From the NCBI RefSeq assembly GCF_009914755.1, contig NC_060940.1: a stretch of 64,000 nucleotides of DNA; one strand, written 5' to 3'. Of this stretch, positions 24,401 to 48,900 are shown piece after piece (position 1 is the stretch's first letter; each line of letters starts with the position of its first letter). The notes under the pieces were generated by a model. It worked only from the letters and a program-made list of their open reading frames with translations, had not been told where the DNA came from and made no database searches. This stretch comes from the human T2T-CHM13v2.0 reference genome, Homo sapiens. The position numbers and the translations under genes are program-made.

Positions 24401-24495
24401 GAGTCCATTCGATGATTCCATTCGATTGCATTCGATGATTCCATTATATTCCAGTCAACAATGAATCCATTCGAGTCCATTCGATGATTCCATTA
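18436..24495 (+). repeat. 6.1-kb higher-order unit copy 4 (6,060 bp = 6,112 - 150 + 98)
   Basis: Landmark at 18436 and 24496; 150-bp deletion junction near 18955-18976; 98-bp duplication (TGGATT at 19875 and 19973). Confidence 0.94.
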
Positions 24496-27400
24496 GAGTA
24501 CATTTAATGATTGCTTTGTTTTCAATTCGAAGATGATTACATTGGATTCCATTCTATGATACCATTCGATTCCATTCAATGATGATTCCACTCAAATCCA
24601 TTGGATGATTCCATTCGTGTCCATTCGGTGATTTCCTTAGATTCCATTCGAGGATGATTCCATTCGATTCCATTCGATGATTCCATTCAATTCCATTCGA
24701 GGATGATTCCATTCCAGTCCATATGATCATTCCATTTGATTTCATTCGATGATGATTCCATTCGATTCCATTCGATGATTCCATTCTATTCCATTCGATG
24801 ATGATTCCATTCGAGTCCATTCGATGATTCCATTCGAGTCCATTTAATGATTCCATTGGGTTCAATTCAATGATGATTACATTGGATTCCGTTCTATGAT
24901 TCCATTCAATTCCGTTCATTGACAATTTGATTCCATTCGATGATGATTCCATTTGAGTTCATTCGATGATTCTATTCGATTCTCTTCGATGGTGATTCAA
25001 TTCTATTATATTGGATGATTCCATTCGATTCCATTTGATGTTGATTCAATTCGATTCTATTCGATGATGATTCCATTGGATTTCACTTGATGATTCTATT
25101 CGATTCCATTCAATGATGATTCACTTCTCGTCCATTGGATGATTCCATTTCATTCCATTCGATGATGATTCCATTCGATTCCATTCGATGATTCCATTTG
25201 ATTCCATGCGTCGGTGAGCAATTCGATTCAATTCCATGATGATTCTATTTGATTCAATTAGATGATGTTTCCATTCGAATCCATTCCATGATTATTCCAT
25301 TGGAATCCATTCGGCGATGATTCCATATGAGTCAATTCAATGATGATTCCATATGGGTCCGTTCGATGATAATTCCATTTGATTTCATTCGGTGCTTCTA
25401 TTCAATTCCAGTCGATGATGATTCCGTTGGAGTCCATACGATGATTCCATTTGATTTCATTTGATGATGATTCCATTCGATGATGATTACATTGGATTCC
25501 ATTCTATGATTCCATTCAATTCCATTCGTTGATGATTCGATTCCATTCAATGATGATTCCATTTGAGTTCATTCGATGATTCTATTCGATTCCGTTCGAT
25601 GGTGATTCAATTCTCTTATATTGGATGATTCCACTCGATTCCATTTGATGATTATTCCATTGGAGTCCACTTAGGGAATCCTTCAGATTCTTCTCGAAGA
25701 TGAATCCATTCAAGTCCATTCAATCATACCATTCAATTTCATTCGTTGATGCTTCCATTCAAGTGCATTCGATGATATCATTCGATTCCATTTGATGATA
25801 ATTCCATTTGATTCCATGCGATGATTCTATTCGATTCCATTCAATGATAATTCCATTCAGTTCAGTGATTCCTCTGAACTCCATTTGATGATGATTCCAT
25901 TCAATGATTCCATTCGATTCTATTCCAAAATGATTCCATTTGAATCCATTTGATGATGATTCCATTAGATTCCATTTGATGATTCCATTCGATTCCATGC
26001 GACGATGATTCCATTCAATTCCATGTGATGATTCCATTCTATTCTATTCGATGATGATTCCATTCGATTCCATTCGATGATGATTGGATTCGATTCCATT
26101 TGATGATTTCATTTGATTCCATTCGTTAATGATTTCGATCAATTCCATTCGATGATTCCATTCGATTCCATTCGATAATGATTACATCCGTGTCCATTCA
26201 ATGATTCCATTTGAGCCTGTTCGATAATTCCATTTGAGTCCAACCAATGATTCCATTCATTTCCCTTCAATGATTCCATTCGAGTCCATTTGATCATTCC
26301 GGTAGGGTCCATTCGATGTTGATTCCATTGGAGTGCATTCGATGATTCCATTCGAGTCCATTTTAGGATTTGATTCGAGTCCTTTCGATGATTCCATTCG
26401 ATTCCACTCGATGATGATTTCATTCGAGTCCATTCGACACTTCCAATCGATTCCATTTGATGTTTCCATTCGAGTCCAATTGATGATTCCATTCAATTCC
26501 ATTCGATGATGATTCCGTACGATTCCATTCTGTGATGATTCCATGTGATTGCATTCAATGATGATTCCTTTAGATTGCATTCGATTGTGATTCATTTCGT
26601 CTTCATTCTATGGTTCCACTGGTTTCCATTCGTGTCCATTCCATTATTCCATTCTATTCCATTTGATGATGATTCCATTCGATTCCATTCATTGGTGATT
26701 CCACTCAATTCCATTCAATGATTCCATTCCATTTCTTTCAACAATGATTCCATTACTTTCTAATCGATGATCCACTTGATTCCATTTGACGACGATTCCA
26801 TTCTTGTCCATTCGATGATTCCATTTGATTCCATATGATGATGATTCCATTCGATTCCATACCATGATGATTCCATTCGAGTCCATTCAATGGTGATTCC
26901 ATTCAATTCCATTCGATGATTCCTTTTGATTCCATTCGATGATGATGGCATTCGATTCCTTTCAATCATACCCTTTGATTCCATTGAAAGGTGATTTCAT
27001 TCAAGTCCATTCGATAATTGCATTCGATTCCATTCTATGATGATTCCATTCGAGTCCATTTGATGATTCCATTCAATTCAAGTCAATGATGATTCCATTC
27101 GATTCCATTCGATGATTCCATTGGATTCCATTCGATGATGATTCCATTCAAATCCATTCGATAATTCAATTCAAGTCCATTCGATGATGATTAAAATCGA
27201 ATCCATTCAAAGATTCCATTCAGTTCCATTCGATGATTCCCTTAGATTCCATTCGATGATTCCACTTGATTTCATTTACGATGATTCCATTTGATTCCAT
27301 GTGATGATTCCATTCAATTCTATTCAATGCTGTTTCCGTTTGATTCCATTCGACCATGATTGCCTTTGATTCCATTCAATGACTCCATTCGGTTCCTTTT

Positions 27401-27593
27401 GATGATGATTCCGTTCGATTCCATTTCATTATTCCATTTGATTCCATTGGATGAGTCCATTCGATTACATTCGATGATTATTCCATTCGAGTGCATAAGA
27501 TGATTCCATTCGAGTCCATTCGATGATTCCATTCGATTCCATTCGATGTTGATTCTGTTCAAATCCATTCGATGATTCCACTCGATTCCATTC
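24496..27593 (+). repeat. Truncated 6.1-kb unit copy 5 (first ~3.1 kb)
   Basis: Collinear with unit 2 until ...CCACTCGATTCCATTC, then continues AGTGATGATTCC instead of GATGACTCCAGTTG. Confidence 0.92.
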
Positions 27594-30500
27594 AGTGATG
27601 ATTCCATTTGATTCCATCTGATGATGATTTCATTTGATTCCATTCGATGATGATTCCATTGTAGTCCATTGAATGATTCAATTCAATTCCATTCCATGTG
27701 GATTCCATTCGAATTCATTCGATTATTCCATTCAAATCCCTTCGTTGATTCCATCTGATTCCACTTGACGATGATTCCATTCAAGTCCAATCGATGATTC
27801 CATTCGGTTCCATTCAGTGATTCCATTCGAGTCCATTTATGTATTATATTCGTGTCCACTTGATGACTCACTCCATTCAATTCCATTTAATGATGATTCC
27901 ATTTGATTCCATTTGATGATTCAGTTCGATTCCTTACAATGATTCCCTACGATTCCTTTCTATGATGATTCCATTCGATTCCATTCATTGATGATTCCAT
28001 TCGACTCCATTCGATGATGATTCCTTTCGATTCCATTTGACGATGTTTCCATTTGAGTCCATTCGATGATGATTCAATTCAGTTCTGTTCTATTATGAAT
28101 CCATTCGATTTCATTCAATGCTTCTATTTGATTCCATTCGACGATGATTCCATCTCTTTCCCTTCGATGTTTCCATTTGATTCCATTCAGTGATGATTCC
28201 ATTTGATTCCATCTGATGATGATTTCACTTGATTCATTTCAATGATGATTCCATTCAAGTCCATTCGATGATTCCATTGGAGTCCAAACGATCATTCCAT
28301 TCGATTCCATTCAATGATGATTCCATTCATGTCCATTCAATGAATCCTTTCAATTCCATTCGATGATGACTCCATTCGAGTACATTCGATGATTCCATTT
28401 GATTCCATTTGATGATGATTACATTCAATTCCATTCGAAGATGATTCCATTCAATTCCACTTGATGATGATTCCGTATGAATCCATTCGCTGATTATTCC
28501 ATTCGATTCCATTCATTGACGATTCCATTCGATTCCATTCAATGATGATGCTCTTCTATTCCATTCGATGATTCCGGTCGATTCCATTCGATGATGATTC
28601 CATTAGATTCCATTCGATTGTTGCATTCGATTCCCTTCGATGATGATTCCTTTGAATTCCATTCGATTATGATTCCGTATGAATCCATTTGATGATTATT
28701 CCATTGGATTCCTTTCGATGATGATTCCATTCGATTCCATTTGATGATGTTTCTCATGTATTCCATTTGATAATTCCTTTCAATTCCCTTCGATGATGAT
28801 TCTTTCGAGTCAATTCGATGATTCTATTCCATTCCCTTCGATGATGATTCCATTTCACTCCATTCGATGATTCCATTCGATTCAATTTGGTGATGATTCA
28901 ATTCGATGACATTCGATGACTCCATTCAATTTCATTTGATGATGATTACATTCGAGTCCATTTGATGATTGTATTCCTTTCCTTTTGATGAATATTCCAT
29001 TCGTGTCTATTCAAAGATTCCATTCTATTCCATTCAATGATGATTCCAATTGATTCCATTCAATGATTATGGCTATCGATTCCACTCGTTGATTCCATTT
29101 GATTCCATTCGATGATTATTCCGTTAGATTCCATTAGGAGATTCCATTCGATTTTATTCAATGATTCCAATTGATTCCATTCAATGATGATTCCATTCGA
29201 CTCCATTCAGTGATTCCATTTGAGTCCATTTGATGATTCCATTCGAGTCCATTTGATGATTCCATTCTTTTCCATTTGATGATGATTCCATTAGGGTCCA
29301 TTCAATGATTCCATTCGAGTCCATTCGTTAATGCCTTTCGAGTCCTTTTGATCACTACATTCGAGTCCATTCAATGATTCTATTCGATTCCATTCCATGA
29401 TGATTCCATTCGAGTTCATTCGATGATTGCATTCGAGTCCATTTGATGATTCCATAAGATTCCATTCGACAATGATTCCATTCGAGTCCATTTGATGATT
29501 CCATTCATTTCCTATCGATGAAGATTCCATTCGAGTGTATTCGATGATTCCATTCAAATCCATTCGATGATGATTCCATTCCAGTCCATTCGATCATTCC
29601 ACTTGATTCCATTTGATGACTATTCCATTCAAATCCATTTGATGATTCCATTCGATTCCATTCGATGTTACCATTCCAGTATATACGATGATTCCACTCG
29701 ATTCCATTTGATGATTATTCCATTGGAGTCGACTTAGTGAATCCTTTAGATTCTACTCGAAGATGATTCCATTCGAGTCCATTCGATGATACCATTCAAT
29801 TCCATTCGTTGATGCTTCCATTCAAGTGCATTCGATGATATCATTCGATTCCATTTGATGATAATTCCATTTGATTCCATGTGATGATTCTATTCCATTC
29901 CATTCAATGATAATTCCATTCAATTCAGTGATTCCTCTGGACTCCATTTGATGATGATTCCATTCAATGATTCCATTCGATTCTATTCGAAAATGATTCC
30001 ATTTGAATCCATTTGATGATGATTCCATTCGATTCCATTTGATGATTCCATTCGATTCCATTCGACGATGATTCCATTCGATTCCATTTGATGATTCCAT
30101 TCTATTCTATTCGATGATGATTCCATTCGATTCCATTCGATGATGATTGGATTCGATTCCATTTGATGATTTCATTTGATTCCATTCGATGATGATTTCG
30201 ATCAATTCCATTCGATGATTCCATTCGATTCCATTTGATAATGATTACATCCGAGTCCATTCGATGATTCCATTTGAGCCCGTTCGATAATTCCATTTGA
30301 GTCCAATCAATGATTCCATTCATTTCCATTCAATGATTCCATTCGAGTCCATTTGATCATTCCGGTAGGGTCCGTTCGATGTTGATTCCATTGGAGTGCA
30401 TTCGATGATTCCATTCGAGTCCATTTTAGGATTTGATTCGAGTCCTTTCGATGATTCCATTCGATTCCACTCGATGCGATGATGATTTCATTCGAGTCCA

Positions 30501-33500
30501 TTCGACACTTCCAATCGATTCCATTTGATGTTTCCATTCGAGTCCAATTGATGATTCCATTCAATTCCATTCGATGATGATTCCGTACGATTCCATTCTG
30601 TGATGATTCCATGTGATTGCATTCAATGATGATTCCTTTCGATTGCATTCGATTATGATTCATTTCGTGTTCATTCTATGGTTCCACAGGTTTCACATCG
30701 TGTCCATTCCATTATTCCATTCTATTCCATTTGATGATGATTCCATTCGATTCCATTCATTGGTGATTCCACTCAATTCCATTCAATGATTCCATTCCAT
30801 TTCTTTCAACAATGATTCCATTAGTTTCTAATCGATGATCCACTTGATTCCATTTGACGATGATTCCATTCTTGTCCATTCGATGATTCCATTTGATTCC
30901 ATATGATGATGATTCCATTCGATTCCATACGATGATGATTCCATTCGAGTCCATTCAATGGTGATTCCATTCAATTCCATTCGATGATTCCTTTCGATTC
31001 CATTTGATGATGATGGCATTCGATTCCTTTCAATCATTCCCTTTGATTCCACTCAAAGGTGATTTCATTCAAGTCCATTCGATAATTGCATTCGATTCCA
31101 TTCTATGATGATTCCATTCGAGTCCATTTGATGATTCCATTCAATTCAAGTCAATGATGATTCCATTCGATTCCATTCGATGATTCCATTGGATTCCATT
31201 CGATGATGATTCCATTCAAATCCATTCGATAATTCAATTCACGTCCATTCGATGATGATTCCAATCGAATCCATTCAAAGATTCCATTCAATTCCATTCG
31301 ATGATTCCCTTAGATTCCATTCGATGATTCCACTTGATTCCATTTACGATGATTCCATTCGATTCCATGTGATGATTCCATTCAATTCTATTCAATGATG
31401 TTTCCATTTGATTCCATTCGACCATGATTGCCTTTGATTCCATTCAATGATTCCATTCGGTTCCGTTTGATGATGATTCCGTTCGATTCCATTTGATGAT
31501 TCCATTTGATTCCATTGGATGAGTCCATTCGATTACATTCGATGATTATTCCATTCGAGTGCATTAGATGATTCCATTCGAGTCCATTCGATGATTCCAT
31601 TCGAGTCCATTCGATGATTCCATTCGATTCCATTCGATGTTGATTCTGTTCAAATCCATTCGATGATTCCACTCGATTCCATTCGTTGACTCCATTTGAT
31701 CCCATTCGATGATTTCCTTTGATTCCCTTTGATGATCATTCCATTTGATTCAATTCGGTGATTTCATTGGATTCCATTCAGTGATGTTTCCATTCGACTC
31801 CATTCGATGATGATTCCATTCGACTACATTCGATTATGATTTCATTCAATTCCATTCGATAAAGATTCCCTTCGAGTCCAATCGATGATTCCATTCGATT
31901 CCATTCAACGATGATTTGATTCGTGTCCATTCGATGATTCCATTTGATTCCACTTGATGAGGATTCCATTCGAGTCCATTTGATGATTCCATTCAATTCC
32001 ATTCTCCGATGATTTCTTTTGAGCCCATTCAATGCTTCCACTCGATTACATATGATGATGACTCCATTCGATGAAACTCGATGATGATTCCATTCGCTTG
32101 CATTCGATGATGATTCCACTTGAGTCCGTTAGAAGATTCTATTCAATTACATTCCATGACGATTCCGTTCGAGTCCATTTGATGATTCCATTAGACTCCA
32201 TTCCACGATGATTCCATTCGATGTTATTCGATGATTCCATTCGATCTCATTCGTTGATGATTCCATTCAACTCCATTCGATGTTTCCATTCGAGTTCATT
32301 CTATTATTCCATTAGATTCCATTCGATGATGATTCCATTCGATTCCATTTGATGATTGCATTCTATTTCATTTGATGATGATTCCATTCGAGTCCACTCG
32401 ATGATTCCATTCGAGTCCATTTAATGAATCCATTGGTTTCAATTCTATGATGATTACATTGGATTCCATTCGTTGATGATTTCATTCGGTTCCATTCAAT
32501 GATGATTCCATTCAATTCCTTTCAATGTTTCCATTCAATTCCATACGATGATGATTCCATTTGATTTGATTCGACAGTGAGCCATTCGATTCAATTCCAT
32601 GATGATTCTATTTGATTCACTTGGTTGACATTTCCATTCGATTCCATTCGATGATGATTCCATTTGATTCCATTCAAAGATGATTCCATTCTAGCCCATT
32701 CAATCATTCCATTCGATTCTATTCAATGATGATTCCATTCATGTCGATTTGGTGATTCAATTTGACTTCATTTGATGATGATTCCTTTCAAGTTCATTAG
32801 ATGATTCCATTCGATTCCATTTGATGATGATCCCATTCGAGTCCATTCAGTGATTCCACTCGTTTCCATTCCATGATGATTCCATTCCATTCCATTCAAT
32901 GATTCCATTCGATTCCGTTTGATGATGATTTCATTCGAGTCCATTTGATGATTCCATTTGATTCCATTCGATGATGATTCCATTCGAGTCCATTCGATGA
33001 TTCTATTCGAATCCATTTGATGATTTCTTTTGATTATATTTGGTGATGATTCCATTGGAGTCCATTCAATGATTCCATTCGATTCCAATCGATGGTGGTT
33101 CCATTAGAGTCCATTTAATGATTCTATTTGATTCCAGTCTCTGATGTTTACATTCGAGTCCATACGATGATTCCACTCAATTCCATATGATGATGATTCC
33201 ATTCGATTCCATTCGATGATTCCATTCTATTCTATTCAATGGTGATTCCATTCGAGTACATTAGATGATTCCATTCGATTCCATTCAATGATGATTCTAT
33301 TTGTGTCCCTTAGATGATTCCACATGATTCCATTAGATGATGATACTATTTGAGCCCATCCTATGATTCCCTTCGATTCCATTCGATGAGGATTCCATTC
33401 GATTCAATTCATTGGTGATTCTATTCAATTCAATTCTTTGATTCCATTCCATTCCATTCGACAATGATTCCATTCGATTTCTTTCGATGATTCCACTCAA

Positions 33501-34759
33501 TTTCACTTGACATTGATTCCATTCGATTCCATTCAATGATTCCATTTGATTCCAGTGGATGATGATTGCCGTCGATTCCATTCGATCACTCCATTCTGTT
33601 CCATTTGATGATGATTACATTCGATTCCATTTGATGATTCCATCTGACTCTATTCGAGGATTCCATTTGATTCCATTCGATGATGATTCCATTCGAGTCC
33701 ATTCGATGATTTCATTCGAGTACATCCAATGATTCCATTCGAGTCCATTTGATGATTCCATTTCATTCCATTTGATTATGATTCTACTAGAGTCCATTCA
33801 ATGACTCCATTCGAGTCCATTCAACAGTTCCATCCGAGTCCATTCGATGATTCCATTCGATTCCATTTGATGATTCCATTTGAGTCCATTTAATCATTAC
33901 AGTCGAGTCCATTTGGTGATTCCACTGGATTTCTTTTGATAATGATACCATTCAATTACATTTGATGATGATCCCATTCAATTTCATTTGATGATGATTC
34001 CATTAGAGTCCATTCCATGATTTCATTCGAGTCCCTTCATTGATTCCATCCGATTTCATTTCATGATGACTCCATTCGAGTCCATTCGATGATTCCACTC
34101 GATTCCATTAGATGATTCCATTGGAGTCCATTTGATTGTTCCATTCGATTCCATTCGATTCCTTTCGAAGATTATTCCATTTGAGTCCATTCGATGATGA
34201 TTCCATTCCATTCCATTCGATGATTCCGTTTGATTCCATTCGATGATTCCCTGCGATTCCTTTCTATGATGATTCCATTCCATTCCATTCAATGATTCCA
34301 TTCGAATCTATTCCATGATGATTCCTTTCGATTCCATTCGCTGATGTTTCCGTTCAATTCCATTCGATGATGATTCCATTCGATTCCATTCATTGAGGAT
34401 TCCATTGGATTCCATTCAATGATGATTCCATTCTATTCCATTCAATGATTGCATTCAATTCCATTCAATGATTATGCCATTAGAGTAAATTCAACGATTC
34501 CATTCAATACCATTCGATGATGATTCCTTTTGAGTCCATTCAATGATTTCATTCAAGTCCATTTGATGATTCCTTTCAATTCCATTCCATGATGATTCCA
34601 TTCGAGTCCATTCGATGATTCCATTCGATTGCATTCGATGATTCCATTATATTCCATTCAACGATGATTCCATTCGAGTCCATTCGATGATTCCATTAGA
34701 GTACATTTAATGATTGCTTTGTTTTCAATTCGAAGATGATTACATTGGATTCCATTCTG

Positions 34760-35517
34760 TGATTCCATTCGATTGCATTCATTGGTGATTCCACCCAATT
34801 CCATTCGATGATGATTCCATTCGATTTCAATGATTCTACTCGATTCCATTCAATGATGATTCAATTCTATTCCGTTTGATGATTCCACTAGATTCCATTC
34901 TATGATGATTCCATTCGAGTCCATTCGAAGATTTCATTCGATTACATTCCATGACGATTCCATTCGAGTCCATTCGATGATTCCATTTGAATCCATTCGA
35001 CGATGATTCCATTTGATGCTATTCGATGATTCCATTGGATTCCATTCGATGATGATTCCATTCGACTTGATTTGATGTTTCTATTTGAGTCCATTCGGTT
35101 ATTTTATTAGACTACATTCGATGATGATTCCATTCGATGCCATTCAATGATTCCATTTGATTCCACTCAATGATGATTGCATTCGTGTCCATTCGATGAT
35201 TCCATTTGGTTCCATTTGATGATGATTCCATTCGAGTCCATTCGATGATACCATTCAATTCCATTCGATGATCATTCCATTCGAATCCATTTGATGATTC
35301 CACTCAATTCCATTTGATGACTCCTTTCATTCCCATTCGATGATTCCCTTCAGTTCCAATTGGATGATCTTTCCATTTGATTCAATATGGTGACTCCATT
35401 CTATTATATTCAATGATGATTCCATTCGACTCCATTAGATGATGACTCCATTCCATTCCATTCGATTGTGATTTCATTCGATTCCATTCGAAGATGATTC
35501 CATTCGAGTCCATTTGA
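34760..35517 (+). repeat. HSat2 block (~758 bp) absent from the 6,112-bp unit (extra block 1)
   Basis: Distance from landmark to ACTCAAATCC is 95 in standard units but 853 here (34699 to 35551). Confidence 0.87.
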
Positions 35518-35613
35518 TGATTCCATTCGATTCCATTCAATGATGATTCCACTCAAATCCATTGGATGATTCCATTCGTTTCCAATTGGTGATTTCATTA
35601 GATTCCATTCGAG

Positions 35614-37626
35614 GATGATTCTATTCGAGTCCATTCAATGATTCCATTGGATTCCGTTTGATAATGATTCCATTAGAGTTCATTCGATGATTCCCTTCGA
35701 GTCCATTCGATTATTTCTTTTGATTCCATTTGATGATGATTCCATTCGATTCCATTCAATGATTCCATTCCATTCCATTCGATGATGATTCCATTCGATA
35801 ATGATTACATTCGAGCCCATGTGATGATTCCATTAGATTCTATTCAATGATGATTCCATTCGACCACATTCGATGATGGCATTCGAGTCCATTCGATGAT
35901 TTCACTCGATTCCACTTGATGATGATTCCTTTTGAGTCCATTTGATGATTACATTCGAGTCCATGAGATGACTCCATTCGATTCCATTTCATGATGATGC
36001 AATTCGAGGCTATTCGATCATCCCATTTTAGTGCATTCGGTGATTCTCTTTTATTACATTCGATGAGGGCTCCATTCGAGTCCATTCAATGATTCCATTA
36101 GATTCCACTCGATGATGATTCCATTTGAGTCCATTCAAAGATTCCTTTCGAGTCCATTCGATAATTCTATTGGATTCCACTAGGTGATGATTCCTTTCGA
36201 GTCAATTCGATGATTCCTTTCAAGTGCCTTCAATGATTCCATTCGATTCCATTCGATGACGATTCATTTCAAGTCCATTCAATGGTTCCATTCTGTTGAA
36301 TTTGATGGTTCCATTTGATTCCATTCGATGATGATTCCATTCGTGTCCATTGGATGATTCCATTCGATTCCTTTCGAGGAAGATTCCATTCGACTCCATT
36401 CGATGATTCCGTTCGATTCCATTCCATGATGATTCCATTTGATTCCATTCCATGATTCCATTCGATACCATTCGATGATGATTCCATTCGACTCCATTTG
36501 ATGAATCCATTCAATGCTTCCATTCGAGTCCATTCGATGATTCCATTCGATTCCATTCCATGAAGATTCCATTCGAGTACATTTGATGATTCCATTTAAT
36601 TCCATAGGATGATGATTCTATTAGGGTCCGTTGACTATTCCATTCAATTCCATTCGAAGATTCCATTCGAGTCCACTCGATGATTCTATTTGATTCCATT
36701 TGATAATTCCATTCGATTCCATTTGATGTTGATTCCATTCGAGTCCATTCGATCATTATTACATTTGATTCTATTCGATGATTCCATTCGATTCCATTTG
36801 ATGAGGATTCCATTCGAGACCATTTGATGATTCCATTCAATTCCATTGGATGATTCCAATATTTTCCATTAGATGATGATTCCATTCGATTCCATTCAAT
36901 GATGATTCCATCAGAATCCATTCGATGATGACTCCTTTTGCTTCCATTCAATGATCATTACATTCGGTTCCATTCGATGATGATTCCTTTGGATTCCATT
37001 CGATGATGCTTCCATTCGATTCCATTTGATGATGATTCTTTTCGATTCCATTTGATGATGATTCCATTTGATTCCATTCGATGGTGATTCCATTTGATGA
37101 TTCCATTCGATTGTATTCGATGATGATTCCACTCGATTCTATTTGATGATGACTGCATTCGATTCCATTTGATGATTCCATTTGATTCCATTCGATGATG
37201 ATTCTGATCAATTGCATTCGATGATCCATTCGATTCCATTTGATGGTTCCATTTGATTCCATTTGATAATGATTCCTTTCGAGTCCATTCGATGATTCCA
37301 TTTGCGGATATTCGATAATTCCATTTGAGTCCAACCGATGATTCCATTCGAGGCCATTCAATCATTCTTTTTGAGTCCTTTCGATAAAGATTCCATTTTA
37401 GTCCATTCAATAATTCCACTGGAGTCCATTCGATGATTGCTTTTAATTCCATTCGATGATATTCCATTCGAGTCCATTCGATGATTCCATTCGTTGCTAT
37501 TAGATGATGATTCCATTCATGACCATTTGGTGATTCCATTCGATTTCATTCGTTGATGATTCCATTCGAGTCCATTCCATGATTCCATTCAAGTCCATTT
37601 GATGATTTCTTTGAATTCAATTCGAT
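35614..37626 (+). repeat. HSat2 block (~2,013 bp) absent from the 6,112-bp unit (extra block 2)
   Basis: After GAGGATGATT (35611) the standard unit resumes only at ~37624. CCATATGAT is at 37693 versus unit offset 224. Confidence 0.87.
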
Positions 37627-38424
37627 GATGATTCCATTCGAGTCCATTCGATGATTCCATTCAGTTCCATTCGATGATGATTCCTTTCGAGACCATATGA
37701 TGATTCCATTTGATTTCATTCGATGATGATTCCATTCGATTCCATTCGATGATTCCATTCTATTCCATTCGATGATGATTCCATTCGAGTCCATTTAATG
37801 ATTCCATTGGGTTCAATTCAATGATGATTACATTGGATTCTCTTCTATGATACCATTCAATTCCGTTCATTGACAATTTGATTCCATTCGATGATGATTC
37901 CATTTGAGTTCATTCGATGATTCTATTCGATTCTCTTCGATGGTGATTCAATTCTATTATATTGGATGATTCCATTCGATTCCATTTGATGTTGATTCAA
38001 TTCGATTCTATTCGATGATGATTCCATTGGATTTCATTTGATGATTCTATTCGATTCCATTCAATGATGATTCACTTCTCGTCCATTGGATGATTCCATT
38101 TCATTCCATTCGATGATGATTCCATTCGATTCCATTCGATGATTCCATTTGATTCCATTCGACGGTGAGCAATTCGATTCAATTCCATGATGATTCTATT
38201 TGATTCAGTTAGATGATGTTTCCATTCGAATCCATTCCATGATTATTCCATTGGAATCCATTCGGCGATGATTCCATATGAGTCAATTCAATGATGATTC
38301 CATATGGGTCAGTTCGATGATAATTCCATTTGATTTCATTCGATGCTTCTATTCAATTCCAGTCGATGATGATTCCGTTGGAGTCCATACGATGACTCCA
38401 TTTGATTTCATTTGATGATGATTC

Positions 38425-38530
38425 CTTTCGATTCCATTCGATGACTCCATTCTGTTCCATTCGATGATGATTCCATTCGAGTCCATTCGATGATTCCATT
38501 CGAGTCCATTTCATGATTCCATTGGGTTCA
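38425..38530 (+). repeat. HSat2 block (~105 bp) absent from the 6,112-bp unit (extra block 3)
   Basis: GGAGTCCATACG to GATTACA spacing is 56 bp in unit 2 (7145 to 7201) and 161 bp here (38380 to 38541). Confidence 0.87.
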
Positions 38531-38680
38531 ATTCGATGATGATTACACTGGATTCCATTCTATGATTCCATTCAATTCCATTCGTTGATGATTCGATTCC
38601 ATTCAATGATGATTCCATTTGAGTTCATTCGATGATTCTATTCGATTCCGTTCGATGGTGATTCAATTCTATTATATTGG

Positions 38681-41600
38681 ATGATTCCATTCGATTCCAT
38701 TTGATGATGATTCCATTCGATTCCATTCGATGATGATTCCATTTGATTCCATTTGATGTTGATTCTATTCGATTCTATTCAATGATGATTCCATTCGATT
38801 TCATTTGATGATTCTATTCGATTCCTTTCGATGATTCTATTCCATTCCATTCGATGATGATTCAATTCTCTTCCATTGGATGATTCCATTTTATTCCATT
38901 CGACGATGACTCCATTTGATTCCATTCAATGATGATTCCATTCGATTCCATTCGGTGATTCCATTTGATTCCATTCGACGGTGAGCAATTTGATTCAATT
39001 CCATAATGATTCTATTTGATTCAATTAGATGATGTTTCCATTCGAATCCATTCGGTGATGATTCCATTGGTATCCATTCGACCATGATTCCATATGAGTC
39101 AATTCGATGATGATTCCATACGAGTCCGTTGGATGATAATTCCATTTGATTTCATTCAATCCTTCTATTCGATTCCATTTGATGATGATTCCATCTGAAT
39201 CCATTCTCCGATTCCATTCGATTTCATTCGATGCTTCTATTTGATTTCATTCGAAGATGATTCCTTTCAATTCCGTTCATTAATTCCATTTGATTCCATT
39301 CGATGATGATTCCATCCGATTCCATTGGATGATGATTCCATTCGAGTCCATTCGATGATTCCGTTCTAATCCATTCTATGATTCCATTCGAGTCCATTCG
39401 ATGATTCCATTCGATTCCATTCAGTGATGATTCCATTTGATTCCATCTGATGATGATTTCATTTGATTCCATTCGATGATGATTCCATTGGAGTCCATTG
39501 AATGATTCAATTCAATTCCATTCCATGTGGATTCCATTCGAATTCATTCGATTATTCCCTTCAAATCCCTTCGTTGATTCCATCTGATTCCACTTGACGA
39601 TGATTCCATTCAAGTCCAATCGATGATTCCATTCGGTTCCATTCAATGATTCCATTCGAGTCCATTTATGTATTATATTCGTGTCCACTTGATGACTCCA
39701 TTCAATTCCATTTAATGATGATTCCATTTGATTCCATTTGATGATTCAGTTCGATTCCTTACAATGATTCCCTACGATTCCTTTCTATGATGATTCCATT
39801 CGATTCCATTCATTGATGATTCCATTCGACTCCATTCGATGATGATTCCTTTCGATTCCATTTGACGATGTTTCCATTTGAGTCCATTCGATGATGATTC
39901 CATTGGTATCCATTCGACGATGATTCCATATGAGTCAATTCGATGATGATTCCATACGAGTCCGTTGGATGATAATTCCATTTGATTTCATTCAATCCTT
40001 CTATTCGATTCCATTTGATGATGATTCCATCTGAATCCATTCTCCGATTCCATTCGATTTCATTCGATGCTTCTATTTGATTTCATTCGAAGATGATTCC
40101 TTTCAATTCCATTCATTAATTCCATTTGATTCCATTCGATGATGATTCCATCCGATTCCATTGGATGATGATTCCATTCGAGTCCATTCGATGATTCCGT
40201 TCTAATCCATTCTATGATTCCATTCGAGTCCATTCGATGATTCCATTCGATTCCATTCAGTGATGATTCCATTTGATTCCATCTGATGATGATTTCATTT
40301 GATTCCATTCGATGATGATTCCATTGGAGTCCATTGAATGATTCAATTCAATTCCATTCCATGTGGATTCCATTCGAATTCATTCGATTATTCCATTCAA
40401 ATCCCTTCGTTGATTCCATCTGATTCCACTTGACGATGATTCCATTCAAGTCCAATCGATGATTCCATTCGGTTCCATTCAATGATTCGATTCGAGTCCA
40501 TTTATGTATTATATTCGTGTCCACTTGATGACTCACTCCATTCAATTCCATTTAATGATGATTCCATTTGATTCCATTTGATGATTCAGTTCGATTCCTT
40601 ACAATGATTCCCTACGATTCCTTTCTATGATGATTCCATTCGATTCCATTCATTGATGATTCCATTCGACTCCATTCGATGATGATTCCTTTCGATTCCA
40701 TTTGACGATGTTTCCATTTGAGTCCATTCGATGATGATTCAATTCAGTTCTGTTCTATTGTGAATCCATTCGATTTCATTCAATGCTTCTATTTGATTCC
40801 ATTCGACGATGATTCCATCTCTTTCCCTTCGATGATTCCATTTGATTCCATTCAGTGATGATTCCATTTGATTCCATCTGATGATGATTTCACTTGATTC
40901 ATTTCAGTGATGATTCCATTCAAGTCCATTCGATGATTCCATTGGAGTCCAAACGATCATTCCATTCGATTCCATTCAATGATGATTCCATTCATGTCCA
41001 TTCAATGAATCCTTTCAATTCCATTCGATGATGACTCCATTCGAGTACATTCGATGATTCCATTTGATTCCATTTGATGATGATTACATTCAATTCCATT
41101 CGAAGATGATTCCATTCAATTCCACTTGATGATGATTCCGTATGAATCCATTCGCTGATTATTCCATTCGATTCCATTCATTGACGATTCCATTCGATTC
41201 CATTCAATGATGATTCTCTTCTATTGCATTCGATGATTCCGTTCGATTCCATTCGATGATGATTCCATTAGATTCCATTCGATTGTTGCATTCGATTCCC
41301 TTCGATGATGATTCCTTTGAATTCCATTCGATTATGATTCCGTATGAATCCATTTGATGATTATTCCATTGGATTCCTTTCGATGATGATTCCATTCGAT
41401 TCCATTTGATGATGTTTCTCATGTATTCCATTTGATAATTCCTTTCAATTCCCTTCGATGATGATTCTTTCGAGTCAATTCGATGATTCTATTCCATTCC
41501 CTTCGATGATGATTCCATTTCACTCCATTCGATGATTCCATTCGATTCAATTTGGTGATGATTCAATTCGATGACATTCGATGACTCCATTCAATTTCAT

Positions 41601-42352
41601 TTGATGATGATTACATTCGAGTCCATTTGATGATTGTATTCCTTTCCTTTTGATGATTATTCCATTCGTGTCTATTCAAAGATTCCATTCTATTCCATTC
41701 AATGATGATTCCAATTGATTCCATTCAATGATTATGGCTATCGATTCCACTCGTTGATTCCATTTGATTCCATTCGATGATTATTCCGTTAGATTCCATT
41801 AGGAGATTCCATTCGATTTTATTCAATGATTCCAATTGATTCCATTCAATGATGATTCCATTCCACTCCGTTCAGTGATTCCATTTGAGTCCATTTGAGG
41901 ATTCCATTCGAGTCCATTTGATGATTCCATTCTTTTCCATTTGATGATGATTCCATTAGGGTCCATTCAATGATTCCATTCGAGTCCATTCGTTAATGCC
42001 TTTCGAGTCCTTTTGATCACTACATTCGAGTCCATTCAATGATTCTATTCGATTCCATTCCATGATGATTCCATTCGAGTTCATTCGATGATTGCATTCG
42101 AGTCCATTTGATGATTCCATATGATTCCATTCGACAATGATTCCATTCGTGTCCATTTGATGATTCCATTCATTTCCTATCGATGAAGATTCCATTCGAG
42201 TGTATTCGATGACTCCATTCAAATCCATTCGATGATGATTCCATTCCAGTCCATTCGATCATTCCACTTGATTCCATTTGATGACTATTCCATTCAAATC
42301 CATTTGATGATTCGATTCGATTCCATTCGATGTTACCATTCCAGTATATACG
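38681..42352 (+). repeat. HSat2 block (~3,672 bp, including an 836-bp duplication) absent from the 6,112-bp unit (extra block 4)
   Basis: Standard unit joins TTATATTGGATGA directly to CCACTCGATTCCATTTGATGATTATTCCATTGGAGTC; here these lie at ~38672 and 42359. Confidence 0.87.
39057..40740 (+). repeat. 836/840-bp tandem duplication
   Basis: ATTCCATTGGTATCCATTCG at 39061 and 39897; identical ORF translations at 39224 and 40060 (+836); second copy has a 4-bp ACTC duplication near 40531. Confidence 0.92.
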
Positions 42353-45300
42353 ATGATTCCACTCGATTCCATTTGATGATTATTCCATTGGAGTCGACTT
42401 AGTGAATCCTTTAGATTCTACTCGAAGATGATTCCATTCGAGTCCATTCGATGATACCATTCAATTCCATTCGTTGATGCTTCCATTCAAGTGCATTCGA
42501 TGATATCATTCGATTCCATTTGATGATAATTCCATTTGATTCCATGTGATGATTCTATTCCATTCCATTCAATGATAATTCCATTCAATTCAGTGATTCC
42601 TCTGGACTCCATTTGATGATGATTCCATTCAATGATTCCATTCGATTCTATTCGAAAATGATTCCATTTGAATCCATTTGATGATGATTCCATTCGATTC
42701 CATTTGATGATTCCATTCGATTCCATTCGACGATGATTCCATTCGATTCCATTTGATGATTCCATTCTATTCTATTCGATGATGATTCCATTCGATTCCA
42801 TTCGATGATGATTGGATTCGATTCCATTTGATGATTTCATTTGATTCCATTCGATGATGATTTCGATCAATTCCATTCGATGATTCCATTCGATTCCATT
42901 TGATAATGATTACATCCGAGTCCATTCGATGATTCCATTTGAGCCCGTTCGATAATTCCATTTGAGTCCAATCAATGATTCCATTCATTTCCATTCAATG
43001 ATTCCATTCGAGTCCATTTGATCATTCCGGTAGGGTCCGTTCGATGTTGATTCCATTGGAGTGCATTCGATGATTCCATTCGAGTCCATTTTAGGATTTG
43101 ATTCGAGTCCTTTCGATGATTCCATTCGATTCCACTCGATGCGATGATGATTTCATTCGAGTCCATTCGACACTTCCAATCGATTCCATTTGATGTTTCC
43201 ATTCGAGTCCAATTGATGATTCCATTCAATTCCATTCGATGATGATTCCGTACGATTCCATTCTGTGATGATTCCATGTGATTGCATTCAATGATGATTC
43301 CTTTCGATTGCATTCGATTATGATTCATTTCGTGTTCATTCTATGGTTCCACAGGTTTCACATCGTGTCCATTCCATTATTCCATTCTATTCCATTTGAT
43401 GATGATTCCATTCGATTCCATTCATTGGTGATTCCACTCAATTCCATTCAATGATTCCATTCCATTTCTTTCAACAATGATTCCATTAGTTTCTAATCGA
43501 TGATCCACTTGATTCCATTTGACGATGATTCCATTCTTGTCCATTCGATGATTCCATTTGATTCCATATGATGATGATTCCATTCGATTCCATATGATGA
43601 TGATGCCATTCGAGTCCATTCAATGGTGATTCCATTCAATTCCATTCGGTGATTCCTTTCGATTCCATTTGATGATGATGGCATTCGATTCCTTTCAATC
43701 ATTCCCTTTGATTCCACTCAAAGTTGATTTCATTCAAGTCCATTCGATAATTGCATTCGATTCCATTCTATGATGATTCCATTCGAGTCCATTTGATGAT
43801 TCCATTCAATTCAAGTCAATGATGATTCCATTCGATTCCATTCGATGATTCCATTGGATTCCATTCGATGATGATTCCATTCAAATCCATTCGATAATTC
43901 AATTCACGTCCATTCGATGATGATTCCAATCGAATCCATTCAAAGATTCCATTCAATTCCATTCGATGATTCCCTTAGATTCCATTCGATGATTCCACTT
44001 GATTCCATTTACGATGATTCCATTCGATTCCATGTGATGATTCCATTCAATTCTATTCAATGATGTTTCCATTTGATTCCATTCGACCATGATTGCCTTT
44101 GATTCCATTCAATGATTCCATTCGGTTCCGTTTGATGATGATTCCGTTCGATTCCATTTGATGATTCCATTTGATTCCATTGGATGAGTCCATTCGATTA
44201 CATTCGATGATTATTCCATTCGAGTGCATTAGATGATTCCATTCGAGTCCATTCGATGATTCCATTCGAGTCCATTCGATGATTCCATTCGATTCCATTC
44301 GATGTTGATTCTGTTCAAATCCATTCGATGATTCCACTCGATTCCATTCGATGACTCCATTTGATCCCATTCGATGATTTCCTTTGATTCCCTTTGATGA
44401 TCATTCCATTTGATTCAATTCGGTGATTTCATTGGATTCCATTCAGTGATGTTTCCATTCGACTCCATTCGATGATGATTCCATTCGACTACATTCGATT
44501 ATGATTTCATTCAATTCCATTCGATAAAGATTCCCTTCGAGTCCAATCGATGATTCCATTCGATTCCATTCAACGATGATTTGATTCGTGTCCATTCGAT
44601 GATTCCATTTGATTCCACTTGATGAGGATTCCATTCGAGTCCATTTGATGATTCCATTCAATTCCATTCTCCGATGATTTCTTTTGAGCCCACTCAATGC
44701 TTCCACTCGATTCCATATGATGATGACTCCATTCGATGAAATTCGATGATGATTCCATTCGCTTGCATTCGATGATGATTCCACTTGAGTCCATTAGAAG
44801 ATTCTATTCAATTACATTCCATGACGATTCCGTTCGAGTCCATTTGATGATTCCATTAGACTCCATTCGACGATGATTCCATTCGATGTTATTCGATGAT
44901 TCCATTCGATCTCATTCGATGATGATTCCATTCAACTCCATTCGATGTTTCCATTCGAGTTCATTCTATTATTCCATTAGATTCCATTCGATGATGATTC
45001 CATTCGATTCCATTTGATGATTGCATTCTATTTCATTTGATGATGATTCCATTCGAGTCCACTCGATGATTCCATTCGAGTCCATTTAATGAATCCATTG
45101 GTTTCAATTCTATGATGATTACATTGGATTCCATTCGTTGATGATTTCATTCGGTTCCATTCAATGATGATTCCATTCAATTCCTTTCAATGTTTCCATT
45201 CAATTCCATACGATGATGATTCCATTTGATTTGATTCGACAGTGAGCCATTCGATTCAATTCCATGATGATTCTATTTGATTCCATTGGTTGACATTTCC

Positions 45301-45917
45301 ATTCGATTCCATTCGATGATGATTCCCTTTGATTCCATTCAAAGATGATTCCATTCTAGCCCATTCAATCATTCCATTCGATTCTATTCAATGATGATTC
45401 CATTCATGTCGATTTGGTGATTCCATTTGACTTCATTTGATGATGATTCCTTTCAAGTTCATTAGATGATTCCATTCGATTCCATTTGATGATGATCCCA
45501 TTCGAGTCCATTCAGTGATTCCACTCGTTTCCATTCCATGATGATTCCATTCCATTCCATTCAATGATTCCATTCGATTCCGTTTGATGATGATTTCATT
45601 CGAGTCCATTTGATGATTCCATTTGATTCCATTCGATGATGATTCCATTCGAGTCCATTCGATGATTGTATTCGAATCCATTTGATGATTTCTTTTGATT
45701 ATAGTTGGTGATGATTCCATTGGAGTCCATTCAATGATTCCATTCGATTCCAATCGATGGTGATTCCATTAGAGTCCATTTAATGATTCCATTTGATTCC
45801 AGTCTCTGATGATTACATTCGAGTCCATACAATGATTCCACTCAATTCCATATGATGATGATTCAATTCGATTCCATTCGATGATTCCATTCTATTCTAT
45901 TCAATGGTGATTCCATT
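40259..45917 (+). repeat. Second, partial (~5.66 kb) copy of the long unit, matching 27594-33252
   Basis: Shared private variants (GAGTCGACTTAG 29727/42392, TCGATGCGATGATG ~30472/43137, GGTTTCACATCG ~30689/43354); identity ends after GGTGATTCCATTC at 33241/45906. Confidence 0.92.
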
Positions 45918-48900
45918 CAAATCCATTCGATAATTCAATTCAAGTCCATTCGATGATGATTAAAATCGAATCCATTCAAAGATTCCATTCAGTTCCATTC
46001 GATGATTCCCTTAGATTCCATTCGATGATTCCACTTGATTCCATTTACGATGATTCCATTCGATTCCATGTCATGATTCCATTCAATTCTATTCAATGCT
46101 GTTTCCATTTGATTCCATTCGACCATGATTGCCTTTGATTCCATTCAATGATTATGGCTATCGATTCCACTCGTTGATTCCATTTGATTCCGTTCGATGA
46201 TTATTCCGTTAGATTCCATTAGAAGATTCCATTCGATTTTATTCAATGATTCCAATGGATTCCATTCAATGATGATTCCATTCGACTCCATTCAGTGATT
46301 CCATTCGAGTCCATTTGATGATTCCATTCTTTTCCATTTGATGATGATTCCATTAGGGTCCATTCAATGATTCCATTCGAGTCCATTCGTTAATGCCTTT
46401 CGAGTCCTTTTGATCACTACATTCGAGTCCATTCAATGATTCTATTCGATTCCATTCCATGATGATTCCATTCGAGTTCATTCGATGATTGCATTCGAGT
46501 CCATTTGATGATTCCATATGATTCCCTTCGACAATGATTCCATTCGTGTCCATTTGATGATTCCATTCATTTCCTATCGATGAAGATTCCATTCAAGTGT
46601 ATTCGATGATTCCATTCAAATCCATTCGATGATGATTCCATTCCAGTCCATTCGATCATTCCACTTGATTCCATTTGATGACTATTCCATTCAAATCCAT
46701 TTGATGATTCCATTCGAATCCATTCGATGTTACCATTCGAGTATATACGATGATTCCACTCGATTCCATTTGATGATTATTCCATTGGAGTCCACTTAGT
46801 GAATCCTTTAGATTCTACTGGAAGATGATTCCATTCGAGTCCATTCGATGATACCATTCAATTCCATTCGTTGATGCTTCCATTCAAGTGCATTCGATGA
46901 TATCATTCGATTCCATTTGATGATAATTCCATTTGATTCCATGCGATGATTCTATTCGATTCCATTCAATGATAATTCCATTCAATTCAGTGATTCCTCT
47001 GGACTCCATTTGATGATGATTCCATTCAATGATTCCATTCGATTCTATTCGAAAATGATTCCATTTGAATCCATTTGATGATGATTCCATTGGATTCCAT
47101 TTGATGATTCCATTCGATTCCATTCGATGATGATTCCATTCGATTCCTTTTGATGATTCCATTCTATTGTATTCGATGATGATTCCATTCGATTCCATTC
47201 GATGATGATTGGATTCGATTCCATTTGATGATTTCATTTGATTCCATTCGATAATGATTTCGATCAATTCCATTCGATGATTCCATTCGATTCCATTCGA
47301 TAATGATTACATCCGAGTCCATTCGATGATTCCATTTGAGCCCGTTCGATAATTCCATTTGAGTCCAATCAATGATTCCATTCATTTCCATTCAATGATT
47401 CCATTCGAGTCCATTTGATCATTCCGGTAGGGTCCGTTCGATGTTGATTCCATTGGAGTGCATTCGATGATTCCATTCGAGTCCATTTTAGGATTTGATT
47501 CGAGTCCTTTCGATGATTCCATTCGATTCCACTCGATGATTTCATTCGAGTCCATTCGACACTTCCAATCGATTCCATTTGATGATTCCATTCGAGTCCA
47601 ATTGATGATTCCATTCAATTCCATTCGATGATGATTCCGTACGATTCCATTCTGTGATGATTCCATGTGATTGCATTCAATGATGATTCCTTTCGATTGC
47701 ATTCGATTATGATTCATTTCGTGTTCATTCTATGGTTCCACAGGTTTCCATTCGATGATGTTTCCATTCGTGTCCATTCCATTATTCCATTCTATTCCAT
47801 TTGAAGATGATTCCATTCGATTCCATTCATTGGTGATTCCACTCAATTCCATTCAATGATTCCATTCCATTTCTTTCAACAATGATTCCATTAGTTTCTA
47901 TTCGATGATCCACTTGATTCCATTTGACGATGATTCCATTCGTGTCCATTCGATGATTCCATTTGATTCCATATGATGATGATTCCATTCGATTCCATAC
48001 GATGATGATTCCATTCGAGTCCATTCAATGGTGATTCCATTCAATTCCATTCGATGATTCCTTTTGATTCCATTCAATGATGATGGCATTCGATTCCTTT
48101 CGATCATTCCCTTTGATTCCATTCAAAGGTGATTTCATTCAAGTCCATTCGATGATGATTCCGTATGAATCCATTCTCTGATTATTCCATTCGATTCCAT
48201 TCATTGACGATTCCATTCAATTCCATTCAATGATGATTCTCTTCTATTCCATTCGATGATTCCGGTCGATTCCATTCGATGATGATTCCATTAGATTCCA
48301 TTCGATTGTTGCATTCGATTCCCTTCGATGATGATTCCTTTGAATTCCATTCGATTATCATTCTGTATGAATCCATTTGATGATTATTCCATTGGATTCC
48401 TTTCGATGATGATTCCATTCGAGTCCATTCGATGATTCTATTCGAATCCATTTGATGATTTCTTTTGATTATAGTTGTTGATGATTCCTTTGGAGTCCAT
48501 TCCATGATTCCATTCGATTCCAATCGATGATGATTCCATTAGTGTCCATTTAATGATTCCATTTGATTCCAGTCTCTGATGATTACATTCGAGTCCATAC
48601 GATGATTCCACTCAATTCCATATGATGATGATTCCATTCGATTCCATTCGATGATTCCATTCTATTCTATTCAATGGTGATTCCATTCGAGTACATTAGA
48701 TGATTCCATTCGATTCCATTCAATGATGATTCTATTTGTGTCCCTTACATGGTTCCACATGATTTCATTAGATGATGATACTATTTGAGCCCATCCAATG
48801 ATTCCCTTCGATTCCATTCGATGAGGATTCCATTCGATTCAATTCATTGGTGATTCTATTCAATTCAATTCTTTGATTCCATTCCATTCCATTCGACAAT

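What the first reader, a model, noticed from the sequence alone, without database searches (positions are those of the whole stretch)
27594..45917. A 12,665-bp long unit that contains the entire 6,112-bp unit: candidate fossil ancestor of the 6.1-kb HSat2 repeat
Seen: between standard units the period switches to 12,665 bp. One cycle contains every landmark of the 6,112-bp unit, in order, interrupted by four blocks (758, 2,013, 105, 3,672 bp) that all map to the first ~1.14 kb of the short unit. The arithmetic closes exactly: 6,112+758+2,013+105+3,672 plus small indels (-23, +5, +23) = 12,665. Removing the internal 836/840-bp duplication gives ~11.83 kb. Inference: the dominant 6.1-kb unit is a deletion derivative of an ~11.8-kb ancestral unit that survives here as a relic island. 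I do not know whether this has been described.
Basis: partly seen in the sequence, partly recalled or inferred. Interest (0 to 1): 0.8.

Follow-up and report, generated by a model that had tools for sequence, protein, structure and literature searches.

The report
Long and short chr16 HSat2 repeat units
The 12.7-kb repeat unit is real and holds the whole common 6.1-kb unit of the chromosome 16 satellite 2 array, which most likely arose from it by deletions, but the long form is a recurring, still-amplified minor unit and not a lone fossil.

Summary
Observation confirmed. Window 29693-42357 is one complete 12,665-bp unit. It contains the 6,112-bp HSat2 unit in order, interrupted by blocks of exactly 758, 2,013, 105 and 3,672 bp. 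The 12,665 period covers only 1.45 cycles here.

It is not a unique island. An exact 30-mer from the 2,013-bp block occurs 99 times, all on chr16 39.5-52.2 Mb, in runs of 1-6 units. A short-junction 30-mer occurs 1,538 times. Six full long units lie in tandem at 48.5 Mb; the five aligned in full are 97.9-99.6% identical to the window's. The predicted 11,829-bp form exists at 48.8 Mb.

The extra blocks are only 76-84% like any part of the short unit, so they cannot derive from it. A diverged, inverted HSat2 block at chr16:39.40 Mb is equally distant from both forms (about 86%). It carries the long-type joins B2|c and B4|R. This supports deletion as the direction for those two blocks. The 758-bp block has no outgroup test.

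The "fossil/relic" reading is not supported. I found no paper describing these units, but the supplement of Altemose et al. could not be read. Interest is modest.

The parts
6212..12323 (+). Reference short unit (6,112 bp), used as the coordinate system 'ref'
   Evidence: Period 6,112 holds over 1657-12863. The next unit, 12324-18435, is 99.6% identical.
24496..27593 (+). Short unit cut off at ref 3098. This is the left edge of the variant region.
   Evidence: Anchor map. The join 27593|27594 recurs full length at 99-100% at 14 other places on chr16.
27594..29692 (+). Partial long unit: the last ~2.1 kb of block B4
   Evidence: 99% identical to 40259-42357 at offset 12,665.
29693..34758 (+). 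Long unit, shared part R plus a (ref 1135-6112 and ref 1-60)
   Evidence: 5,066 bp against 5,038 bp, 97.3% identical, with +5 and +23 bp indels.
34759..35516 (+). Extra block B1 (758 bp)
   Evidence: Gap in the global alignment. Tiles are 81-83% to the short unit. A 30-mer marker has 105 exact copies; the 100 listed are all on chr16.
35517..35613 (+). Shared piece b (ref 61-157)
   Evidence: 97 bp, 95.9% identical.
35614..37626 (+). Extra block B2 (2,013 bp)
   Evidence: Gap in the global alignment. Tiles are 76-82% to the short unit. A 30-mer marker has 99 exact copies, all on chr16. All 34 scored copies of the 2,085-bp stretch 35619-37703 are 100% identical. The 3' part is present in outgroup L033.
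37627..38425 (+). Shared piece c (ref 158-979)
   Evidence: 799 bp against 822 bp, 94.8% identical, -23 bp.
38426..38530 (+). Extra block B3 (105 bp)
   Evidence: Gap in the global alignment. No flank homology at the join. It lies in a locally duplicated zone, so its direction of change is unclear.
38531..38685 (+). Shared piece d (ref 980-1134)
   Evidence: 155 bp, 98.1% identical.
38686..42357 (+). Extra block B4 (3,672 bp). It holds the internal ~836-bp duplication (38932-39900 and 39763-40740).
   Evidence: Gap in the global alignment. Tiles are 78-84% to the short unit. The duplication is 96.2% identical. A marker in its 3' end has 338 exact copies. B4 is present in outgroup L033 and runs on into R there.
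42358..45917 (+). Start of a further long unit (R, long-unit positions 1-3556), cut off at 45907/45908
   Evidence: Offset 12,665 to 29693-33253.
45908..50128 (+). Rearranged variant unit: a mosaic of R pieces and two B4 pieces (46142-46708 matches long-unit 12030-12619; 48151-48416 matches long-unit 11436-11701)
   Evidence: Anchor map to the long unit and tiles.

Best explanation
The window lies in the 12.7-Mb HSat2 (subfamily B) array of chr16. The array has two related multi-kilobase units of the kind called nested tandem repeats.

The dominant 6,112-bp unit (about 1,500 copies) is contained in order within a 12,665-bp unit (about 100 copies). A sister form of 11,829 bp lacks one copy of an internal 836-bp duplication. 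The long unit carries 6.5 kb of extra, old HSat2 sequence in four blocks, all within the first 1.14 kb of the short unit.

The most likely history has four steps:
1. A long-type unit came first.
2. Three or four deletions between similar, in-register sub-repeats (unequal exchange or replication slippage) produced the 6.1-kb unit.
3. That unit was then amplified to about three quarters of the array.
4. The long form was not left to decay. It kept being homogenised and copied, both as tandem runs of up to six and as part of larger duplicated modules. The 1.45-cycle stretch in this window is one such module.

Shown: the anatomy, the copy numbers, the age of the extra blocks, and the long-type state of two joins in an outgroup. 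Inferred: the deletion mechanism, the number and order of events, and the direction of change for blocks B1 and B3.
For: Anatomy:
- Exact collinear alignment with gaps of 758, 2,013, 105 and 3,672 bp (anchors).
- All 20 tiles of 300 bp lying wholly inside the extra blocks have a best match to the short unit of only 75.8-84.3%.
- The blocks have the same HSat2 motif density as the shared part.

Copy numbers (exact 30-mers over the whole assembly):
- B2 marker: 99, all on chr16 39.54-52.19 Mb.
- B1 marker: 105.
- B4 3'-end marker: 338.
- Short-junction marker: 1,538.
- For the last three only the first 100 places are listed, all on chr16.

Arrangement of the long units:
- Of 96 spacings between plus-strand B2 markers, 40 are 12.60-12.70 kb and 6 are 11.80-11.85 kb.
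- There are 47 runs of 1-6 units, 25 of them singletons.
- Six consecutive full long units lie at 48.515-48.589 Mb. Four align to the window's unit over all 12,665 bp at 99.5-99.6% and one at 97.9%.
- Units of 11,829 bp lie at 48.83-48.88 Mb.
- All 34 scored copies of the 2,085-bp stretch 35619-37703 (B2 and flanking bases) are 100% identical, out of 15,387 candidates.
- The island's left edge recurs full length at 99-100% at 14 other places; 40 of 6,305 candidates were scored.

Direction of change, from locus L033 (chr16:39,400,001-39,410,000, minus orientation):
- 37 of the 78 tiles of 250 bp printed match the long unit at 86% or more, in long-unit order: positions 7343 to 11724, then 11885, 12614, 72 and on to 1358.
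- Its stretch across B4|R is 86.2% to the long join (1,427 columns, 1,721 bits) against 77.6% to the short join (1,180 bits).
- Its stretch across B2|c is 87.8% to the long form against 80.8% to the short form.
- Its R part is equally far from the long unit (85.9%) and from four short units (85.4-85.9%).
- A gapless 300-column alignment crosses the B4|R join with about 274 matches, worked out from its score of 470.
- In a tree rooted on L033, L033 sits about 0.10 changes per site from every long and short copy, while those copies differ from each other by 0.02 or less.

Joins: the flanks of B1, B2 and B4 are in-register similar sub-repeats.
Against: - The outgroup is a single 10-kb sample. Its own unit is rearranged (about 8.2 kb, lacking most of R, a, B1, b and the 5' part of B2), so it says nothing about B1 or the 5' end of B2.
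- A second flank sample (L034) was uninformative.
- Trees of the shared sequence do not place short units inside long-unit diversity. The long and short copies fall into mostly separate clades that meet in an unresolved base.
- No clean intermediate carrying only some of the four blocks was found. The two B1-without-B2 units examined are a different rearrangement: long-unit position 5803 joined to 2210.
- B3 shows no flank homology and lies in a locally duplicated zone.
- No ape genome, other human haplotype or raw reads could be examined.
- 89 of the 189 near matches (up to 3 mismatches) of the B2 marker were not listed. One search placed one of them, so 88 have unknown locations.
Confidence: 0.75

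Rival explanations
1. The long and short units are sister derivatives of a lost ancestor that differed from both. Some of the four differences (B1, the 5' part of B2, B3) are gains or rearrangements in the long lineage, not losses in the short one.
For: The outgroup gives no information on B1, the 5' part of B2, or pieces a and b. B3 has no flank homology. The long unit has at least one derived feature of its own, the 836-bp duplication. The trees show two mostly separate clades and no nesting.
Against: B1 and B2 are only 76-83% like any short-unit sequence, so they cannot have been made from it. No separate array type made of these blocks appeared among the marker places. Edge copies at 52.17 and 52.19 Mb branch near the base of the tree and carry B1 and B2.
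Confidence: 0.15
2. The short unit is ancestral. The long unit arose by insertion of foreign HSat2 from a donor array at four sites.
For: Block-like sequence does exist in a neighbouring HSat2 block (L033), which could in principle be a donor.
Against: In L033 the blocks and the shared segments are equally diverged from the long unit (about 86-91%). A recent donor would be much closer in the blocks than in the shared segments. In L033 the blocks are contiguous with c and R, just as in the long unit. The model also needs four separate insertions within 1.14 kb, each keeping register.
Confidence: 0.07
3. The 12,665-bp arrangement is an assembly artefact of T2T-CHM13.
For: Reads could not be checked. 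Satellite arrays are hard to assemble.
Against: The same unit is found 99 times with consistent spacing. Five full-length copies 6.7 Mb away are 97.9-99.6% identical to it. The same edge join is found at 15 places, the window's own included.
Confidence: 0.03

Closest known systems
Nested tandem repeats (NTRs) of HSat2/HSat3, as defined by Altemose et al. (bioRxiv 10.1101/2021.07.12.452052; passages read)
   Same: Both are multi-kilobase repeat units built from diverged (CATTC)n-derived sequence without discrete monomers. The paper states that periodicity varies along an array and that NTRs expand locally.
   Different: The passages I read give no unit lengths for chr16 and no ancestor-derivative relation between units. 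The paper's Fig. S10 and supplement could not be seen and may show the chr16 periods.
Structural variants of alpha-satellite higher-order repeats (deleted or duplicated monomers inside a canonical unit), described in the same paper (passages)
   Same: A canonical unit and variant units differing by internal deletions or duplications coexist in one array and are spread by unequal exchange.
   Different: Here the rarer, longer form appears to be the older one and the deleted form dominates. There are no discrete monomers, and the deletions are 0.1-3.7 kb.
Layered expansion of centromeric arrays, with older diverged layers on the flanks (named as a section of the same paper; the model's content is recalled)
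   Same: A diverged, inverted HSat2 block flanking the main array keeps the older arrangement, and its junction 30-mer is unique in the genome.
   Different: Only one flank sample was informative. Inside the main array the long form is interspersed throughout and is not confined to the edges.

Membership tests
Human satellite 2 (HSat2), subfamily B | Diverged (CATTC)n-derived sequence rich in ATTCCATTCG decamers with ATG/GATGAT spacers | tested here: met
   Per kb, CATTC occurs 37-49 times, ATTCCATTCG 14-20 times and GATGAT 30-32 times, in the shared part and in each of B1, B2 and B4 alike. The 23/26-bp consensus is quoted from PMC10138405 (passage).
Human satellite 2 (HSat2), subfamily B | Assignment of the chr16 array to subfamily B by subfamily-specific k-mers | not tested
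   Taken from print: chr16 is annotated as homogeneous for HSat2B in CHM13 (PMC11622622, passages; PMC10138405 table). I ran no k-mer classification.
Nested tandem repeat (NTR) | Multi-kilobase period of near-identical units within a simple-repeat-derived satellite | tested here: met
   Period 6,112 in the window. Period 12,665-12,669 over six consecutive units at 48.5 Mb and 11,829 at 48.8 Mb. 40 of 96 marker spacings are 12.60-12.70 kb.
Nested tandem repeat (NTR) | No discrete monomers of similar length, which sets it apart from a higher-order repeat | not tested
   No monomer decomposition was done. Off-register similarity is a flat 74-76% at every register, which fits but does not test the point.
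   99 copies over 12.6 Mb. All 34 scored copies of the 2,085-bp stretch holding B2 are 100% identical. Tandem runs reach six units. The edge join recurs at 14 other places.
Ancestral arrangement relative to the 6.1-kb unit | An outgroup that split before the long and short forms did shares the long-type state at the joins | tested here: inconclusive
   Met for B2|c and B4|R in one outgroup sample that is equidistant from both forms. No outgroup data for a|B1, B1|b or b|B2. B3 is ambiguous.

The most novel reading that the evidence does not exclude
A recent deletion derivative of an 11.8-kb unit has taken over about three quarters of the 12.7-Mb chr16 HSat2 array. The older long form persists as about 100 homogenised copies embedded in larger duplicated modules. 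If so, the long-to-short ratio and the module pattern would be a readable record of how a megabase satellite array was rebuilt. They could also serve as markers of chr16 pericentromeric haplotypes across human pangenomes and apes.
Probability: 0.5. Interest if true: 0.45.

Novelty: new member of a known kind. Interest (0 to 1): 0.35.

Why it matters
This is a worked example of how the unit of a classical human satellite changes. [quoted passage not shown]

That supplies concrete markers for tracing array turnover in other complete human genomes and in apes: four deletion joins, three block-specific sequences and the 836-bp duplication.

It does not change how satellite evolution is understood. 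Unequal exchange, unit variants and local expansion are established ideas.

Tried and rejected
1. Ancient dimer idea (the extra 6.5 kb as a diverged second copy of the 6.1-kb unit). Rejected: the best short-unit hits of the extra-block tiles are scattered and not collinear.

2. Search for clean intermediates. B1 markers without a B2 marker looked promising. The two examined (41.889 and 42.650 Mb) are a different rearrangement, long-unit position 5803 joined to 2210.

3. Trees to give the direction of change. The 1.77-kb tree has 31 rows. One row spans a rearrangement join and was kept in the tree but put in no group. The 1.57-kb tree rooted on L033 has 26 rows. Both leave the base unresolved.

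4. Locating the extra near matches of the B2 marker (121 plus-strand and 68 minus-strand at up to 3 mismatches). The listing is filled by the exact copies. A one-base variant search placed only two, at 39.5465 and 52.1814 Mb. The rest are unplaced, so homologues on other chromosomes are neither shown nor excluded.

5. A second flank sample, L034 (39.470-39.478 Mb): 5.8 kb without HSat2 similarity plus about 2 kb of generic HSat2. Uninformative.

8. Literature. Four searches found no paper naming a 6.1-kb or 12.7-kb chr16 HSat2 unit:
- HSat2 + chr16 + higher-order
- HSat2 / nested tandem repeat / periodicity
- HSat2 / chromosome 16 / repeat unit / unequal crossing
- HSat2 / '6.1 kb' / '6.1-kb' / 6112

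Passages read held nothing on this either. A title search for the Altemose review 'A classical revival' returned only papers that cite it, so I did not read it.
Full report
WHAT IS IN THE WINDOW

The window (T2T-CHM13 chr16:41,788,001-41,852,000) is uniform HSat2: GC is 0.35-0.37 and the + strand is T-rich throughout. Nearest-spacing counts of repeated 24-mers peak at 6,112 (11,813), 6,060 (3,763) and 12,665 (3,754). Smaller peaks lie at 836/840 and 11,825/11,829. Off-register HSat2 similarity is a flat 74-76%, so units in register at 93-100% stand far above background.

Offset 12,665 holds for one stretch only, 27582-33253 against 40247-45918. That stretch is 5,672 bp, ungapped, 99.31% identical, and ends abruptly at 33253/45918. 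The window therefore holds 1.45 cycles of the long period.

ANATOMY OF THE LONG UNIT

I aligned 29693-42357 globally with the short unit 6212-12323, rotated to start at its base 1135. This gives four collinear shared pieces (97.3, 95.9, 94.8 and 98.1% identical). It also gives four gaps of exactly 758, 2,013, 105 and 3,672 bp, at short-unit positions 60/61, 157/158, 979/980 and 1134/1135 (unique-anchor map). The small indels (+5, +23, -23) close the sum to 12,665.

The internal duplication lies at 38932-39900 and 39763-40740 and is 96.2% identical.

WHAT THE EXTRA BLOCKS ARE

- They are HSat2 with the same motif density as the shared part.
- The 20 tiles of 300 bp that lie wholly inside them reach only 75.8-84.3% against any part of the short unit.
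- Their best hits are scattered, not collinear.

So they are neither recent copies of the short unit nor a diverged second copy of it.

THE LONG UNIT IS NOT A LONE ISLAND

Marker and copy searches over the whole assembly:

| Query | Copies found |
|---|---|
| B2 stretch 35619-37703 (2,085 bp) | 34 full-length at 100% identity, chr16 39.70-47.91 Mb (all 34 scored, of 15,387 candidates) |
| B2 30-mer | 99 (97 plus, 2 minus), all on chr16 39.54-52.19 Mb |
| B1 30-mer | 105 |
| B4 3'-end 30-mer | 338 |
| Short-junction 30-mer (ref 56-85) | 1,538 |

For the last three only the first 100 places are listed, and all of those are on chr16.

Of the 96 spacings between plus-strand B2 markers, 40 are 12.60-12.70 kb and 6 are 11.80-11.85 kb. 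The markers form 47 runs of 1 to 6 units, 25 of them singletons like the window's.

I fetched two of the runs.
- At 48.515-48.589 Mb there are six consecutive full long units. Four align to the window's unit over all 12,665 bp at 99.5-99.6% and one at 97.9%.
- At 48.83-48.88 Mb there are units of 11,829 bp that lack one copy of the 836-bp duplication.

The left edge of the window's island is a short unit cut at ref 3098 and joined to the interior of B4. It recurs over the full 300 bp at 99-100% at 14 other places between 42.62 and 49.76 Mb, one of them just upstream of the six-unit run (40 of 6,305 candidates scored).

By these counts the short unit makes up about 9.4 Mb and the long unit about 1.25 Mb of an array given as 12.7 Mb in print (Altemose et al., passage). 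The extra roughly 240 copies of the B4 3' end belong to other rearranged units, such as 45908-50128 in the window.

WHICH FORM CAME FIRST

The blocks cannot be made from the short unit, so they must predate the split of the two forms. The question is whether they sat in the common ancestor or came from elsewhere.

A 10-kb sample 140 kb proximal of the main array answers part of this. It is L033, chr16:39,400,001-39,410,000, in minus orientation.
- Read as reverse complement, 37 of the 78 tiles of 250 bp printed match the long unit at 86% or more.
- They fall in long-unit order: positions 7343 to 11724 (3' part of B2, then c, d and B4), then 11885, 12614, 72 and on to 1358 (3' end of B4 running on into R). 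Many tiles score 50-125 bits above the next-best place.
- By BLAST, its stretch across B4|R is 86.2% to the long join over 1,427 columns, against 77.6% to the short join.
- Its stretch across B2|c is 87.8% to the long form against 80.8% to the short form.
- Its R part is equally far from the long unit (85.9%) and from four short units (85.4-85.9%).
- A gapless 300-column alignment crosses the B4|R join.
- Rooted on L033, all long and short copies lie within about 0.02 changes per site of each other and about 0.10 from L033.

L033's junction 30-mer is unique in the genome even with one mismatch allowed, as expected of an old sequence that is no longer homogenised.

So a lineage that split off well before the long and short forms diverged has the long-type state at two of the four sites. 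The blocks are no closer to L033 than the shared segments are, which argues against recent import from such a donor.

The flanks of B1, B2 and B4 in the long unit are similar, in-register sub-repeats. That is what deletion by unequal exchange or slippage would use.

LIMITS

- There is one informative outgroup sample. Its own unit is rearranged (about 8.2 kb) and lacks B1, the 5' part of B2, and pieces a and b.
- A second sample, L034, was uninformative.
- B3 lies in a locally duplicated zone and has no flank homology.
- Trees of shared sequence separate the long copies (17 rows, SH-aLRT 99) from most short copies (9 of 11). They leave the base unresolved and do not nest the short units within the long ones.
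- The B1-without-B2 units I examined are another rearrangement, not intermediates.
- The places of 88 near matches of the B2 marker were never seen: 89 were unlisted and one search placed one of them. Homologues on other chromosomes are therefore neither shown nor excluded.
- Reads, other human haplotypes and apes could not be examined.

COMPARISON WITH WHAT IS KNOWN

chr16 is annotated as HSat2 subfamily B in CHM13 (PMC11622622, passages). Altemose et al. (bioRxiv 10.1101/2021.07.12.452052, passages) define nested tandem repeats in HSat2/3. They state that periodicity varies along arrays and that such units expand locally. The present case is an instance of that.

Four searches and the passages read found no paper naming the 6.1-kb or 12.7-kb chr16 units or their relation. 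The Altemose supplement and Fig. S10 could not be seen, and I did not read the Altemose review.

VERDICT

- The deletion-derivative reading is supported for B2 and B4 and is parsimonious for the rest.
- The 'fossil island' reading is not supported.
- This is an informative but ordinary example of satellite unit turnover.

Noticed in passing
G000:C16 41.88, 42.97, 44.25, 46.47 and 47.91 Mb (places listed): The B1 and B2 marker places repeat the same spacing pattern at five sites 1.1-2.2 Mb apart: about 23.38 kb, then 12.66 kb two or three times, with a B1-only unit 9.90 kb after the first. Large multi-unit modules appear to have been duplicated within the array.
   Followed up: partly
L026, G000:C16:39,548,553-39,548,594; also minus-strand marker hits at 52.181 and 52.193 Mb: There is an orientation switch at the proximal edge of the main array: long-type units are minus-oriented proximal to it and plus-oriented distal. 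Minus-oriented long-type copies also sit at the distal edge.
   Followed up: partly
L034, G000:C16:39,472,100-39,478,000 (approximate): About 5.8 kb with no similarity to HSat2 lies between the flank block and the main array. The rest of the locus is generic HSat2. I did not identify it.
   Followed up: no
G000:C16:41,861,361 / 41,865,491 / 41,869,621 and 41,950,038 / 41,951,069 / 41,952,100: The B4 3'-end marker also recurs at spacings of 4,130 bp and 1,031 bp. Much shorter derivative units that keep the end of B4 are therefore tandemly repeated just downstream of the window.
   Followed up: no
window 12992-18975, 257-1682 and 18954-19966, 21387-24555: Short-unit length variants are present: period 6,060 over 13881-18975, 5,962 over 12992-14004, 6,210 (a 98-bp shift near ref 1614-1660) and 10,203.
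   Followed up: no
window 38401-38700 against ref 240-539; long-unit 8012-8310 against 8709-9008: There is a local paralogy of about 700 bp period inside the first 1.2 kb of the unit, 94.7% identical. It overlaps the 105-bp block B3 and may explain that difference by unequal exchange.
   Followed up: no
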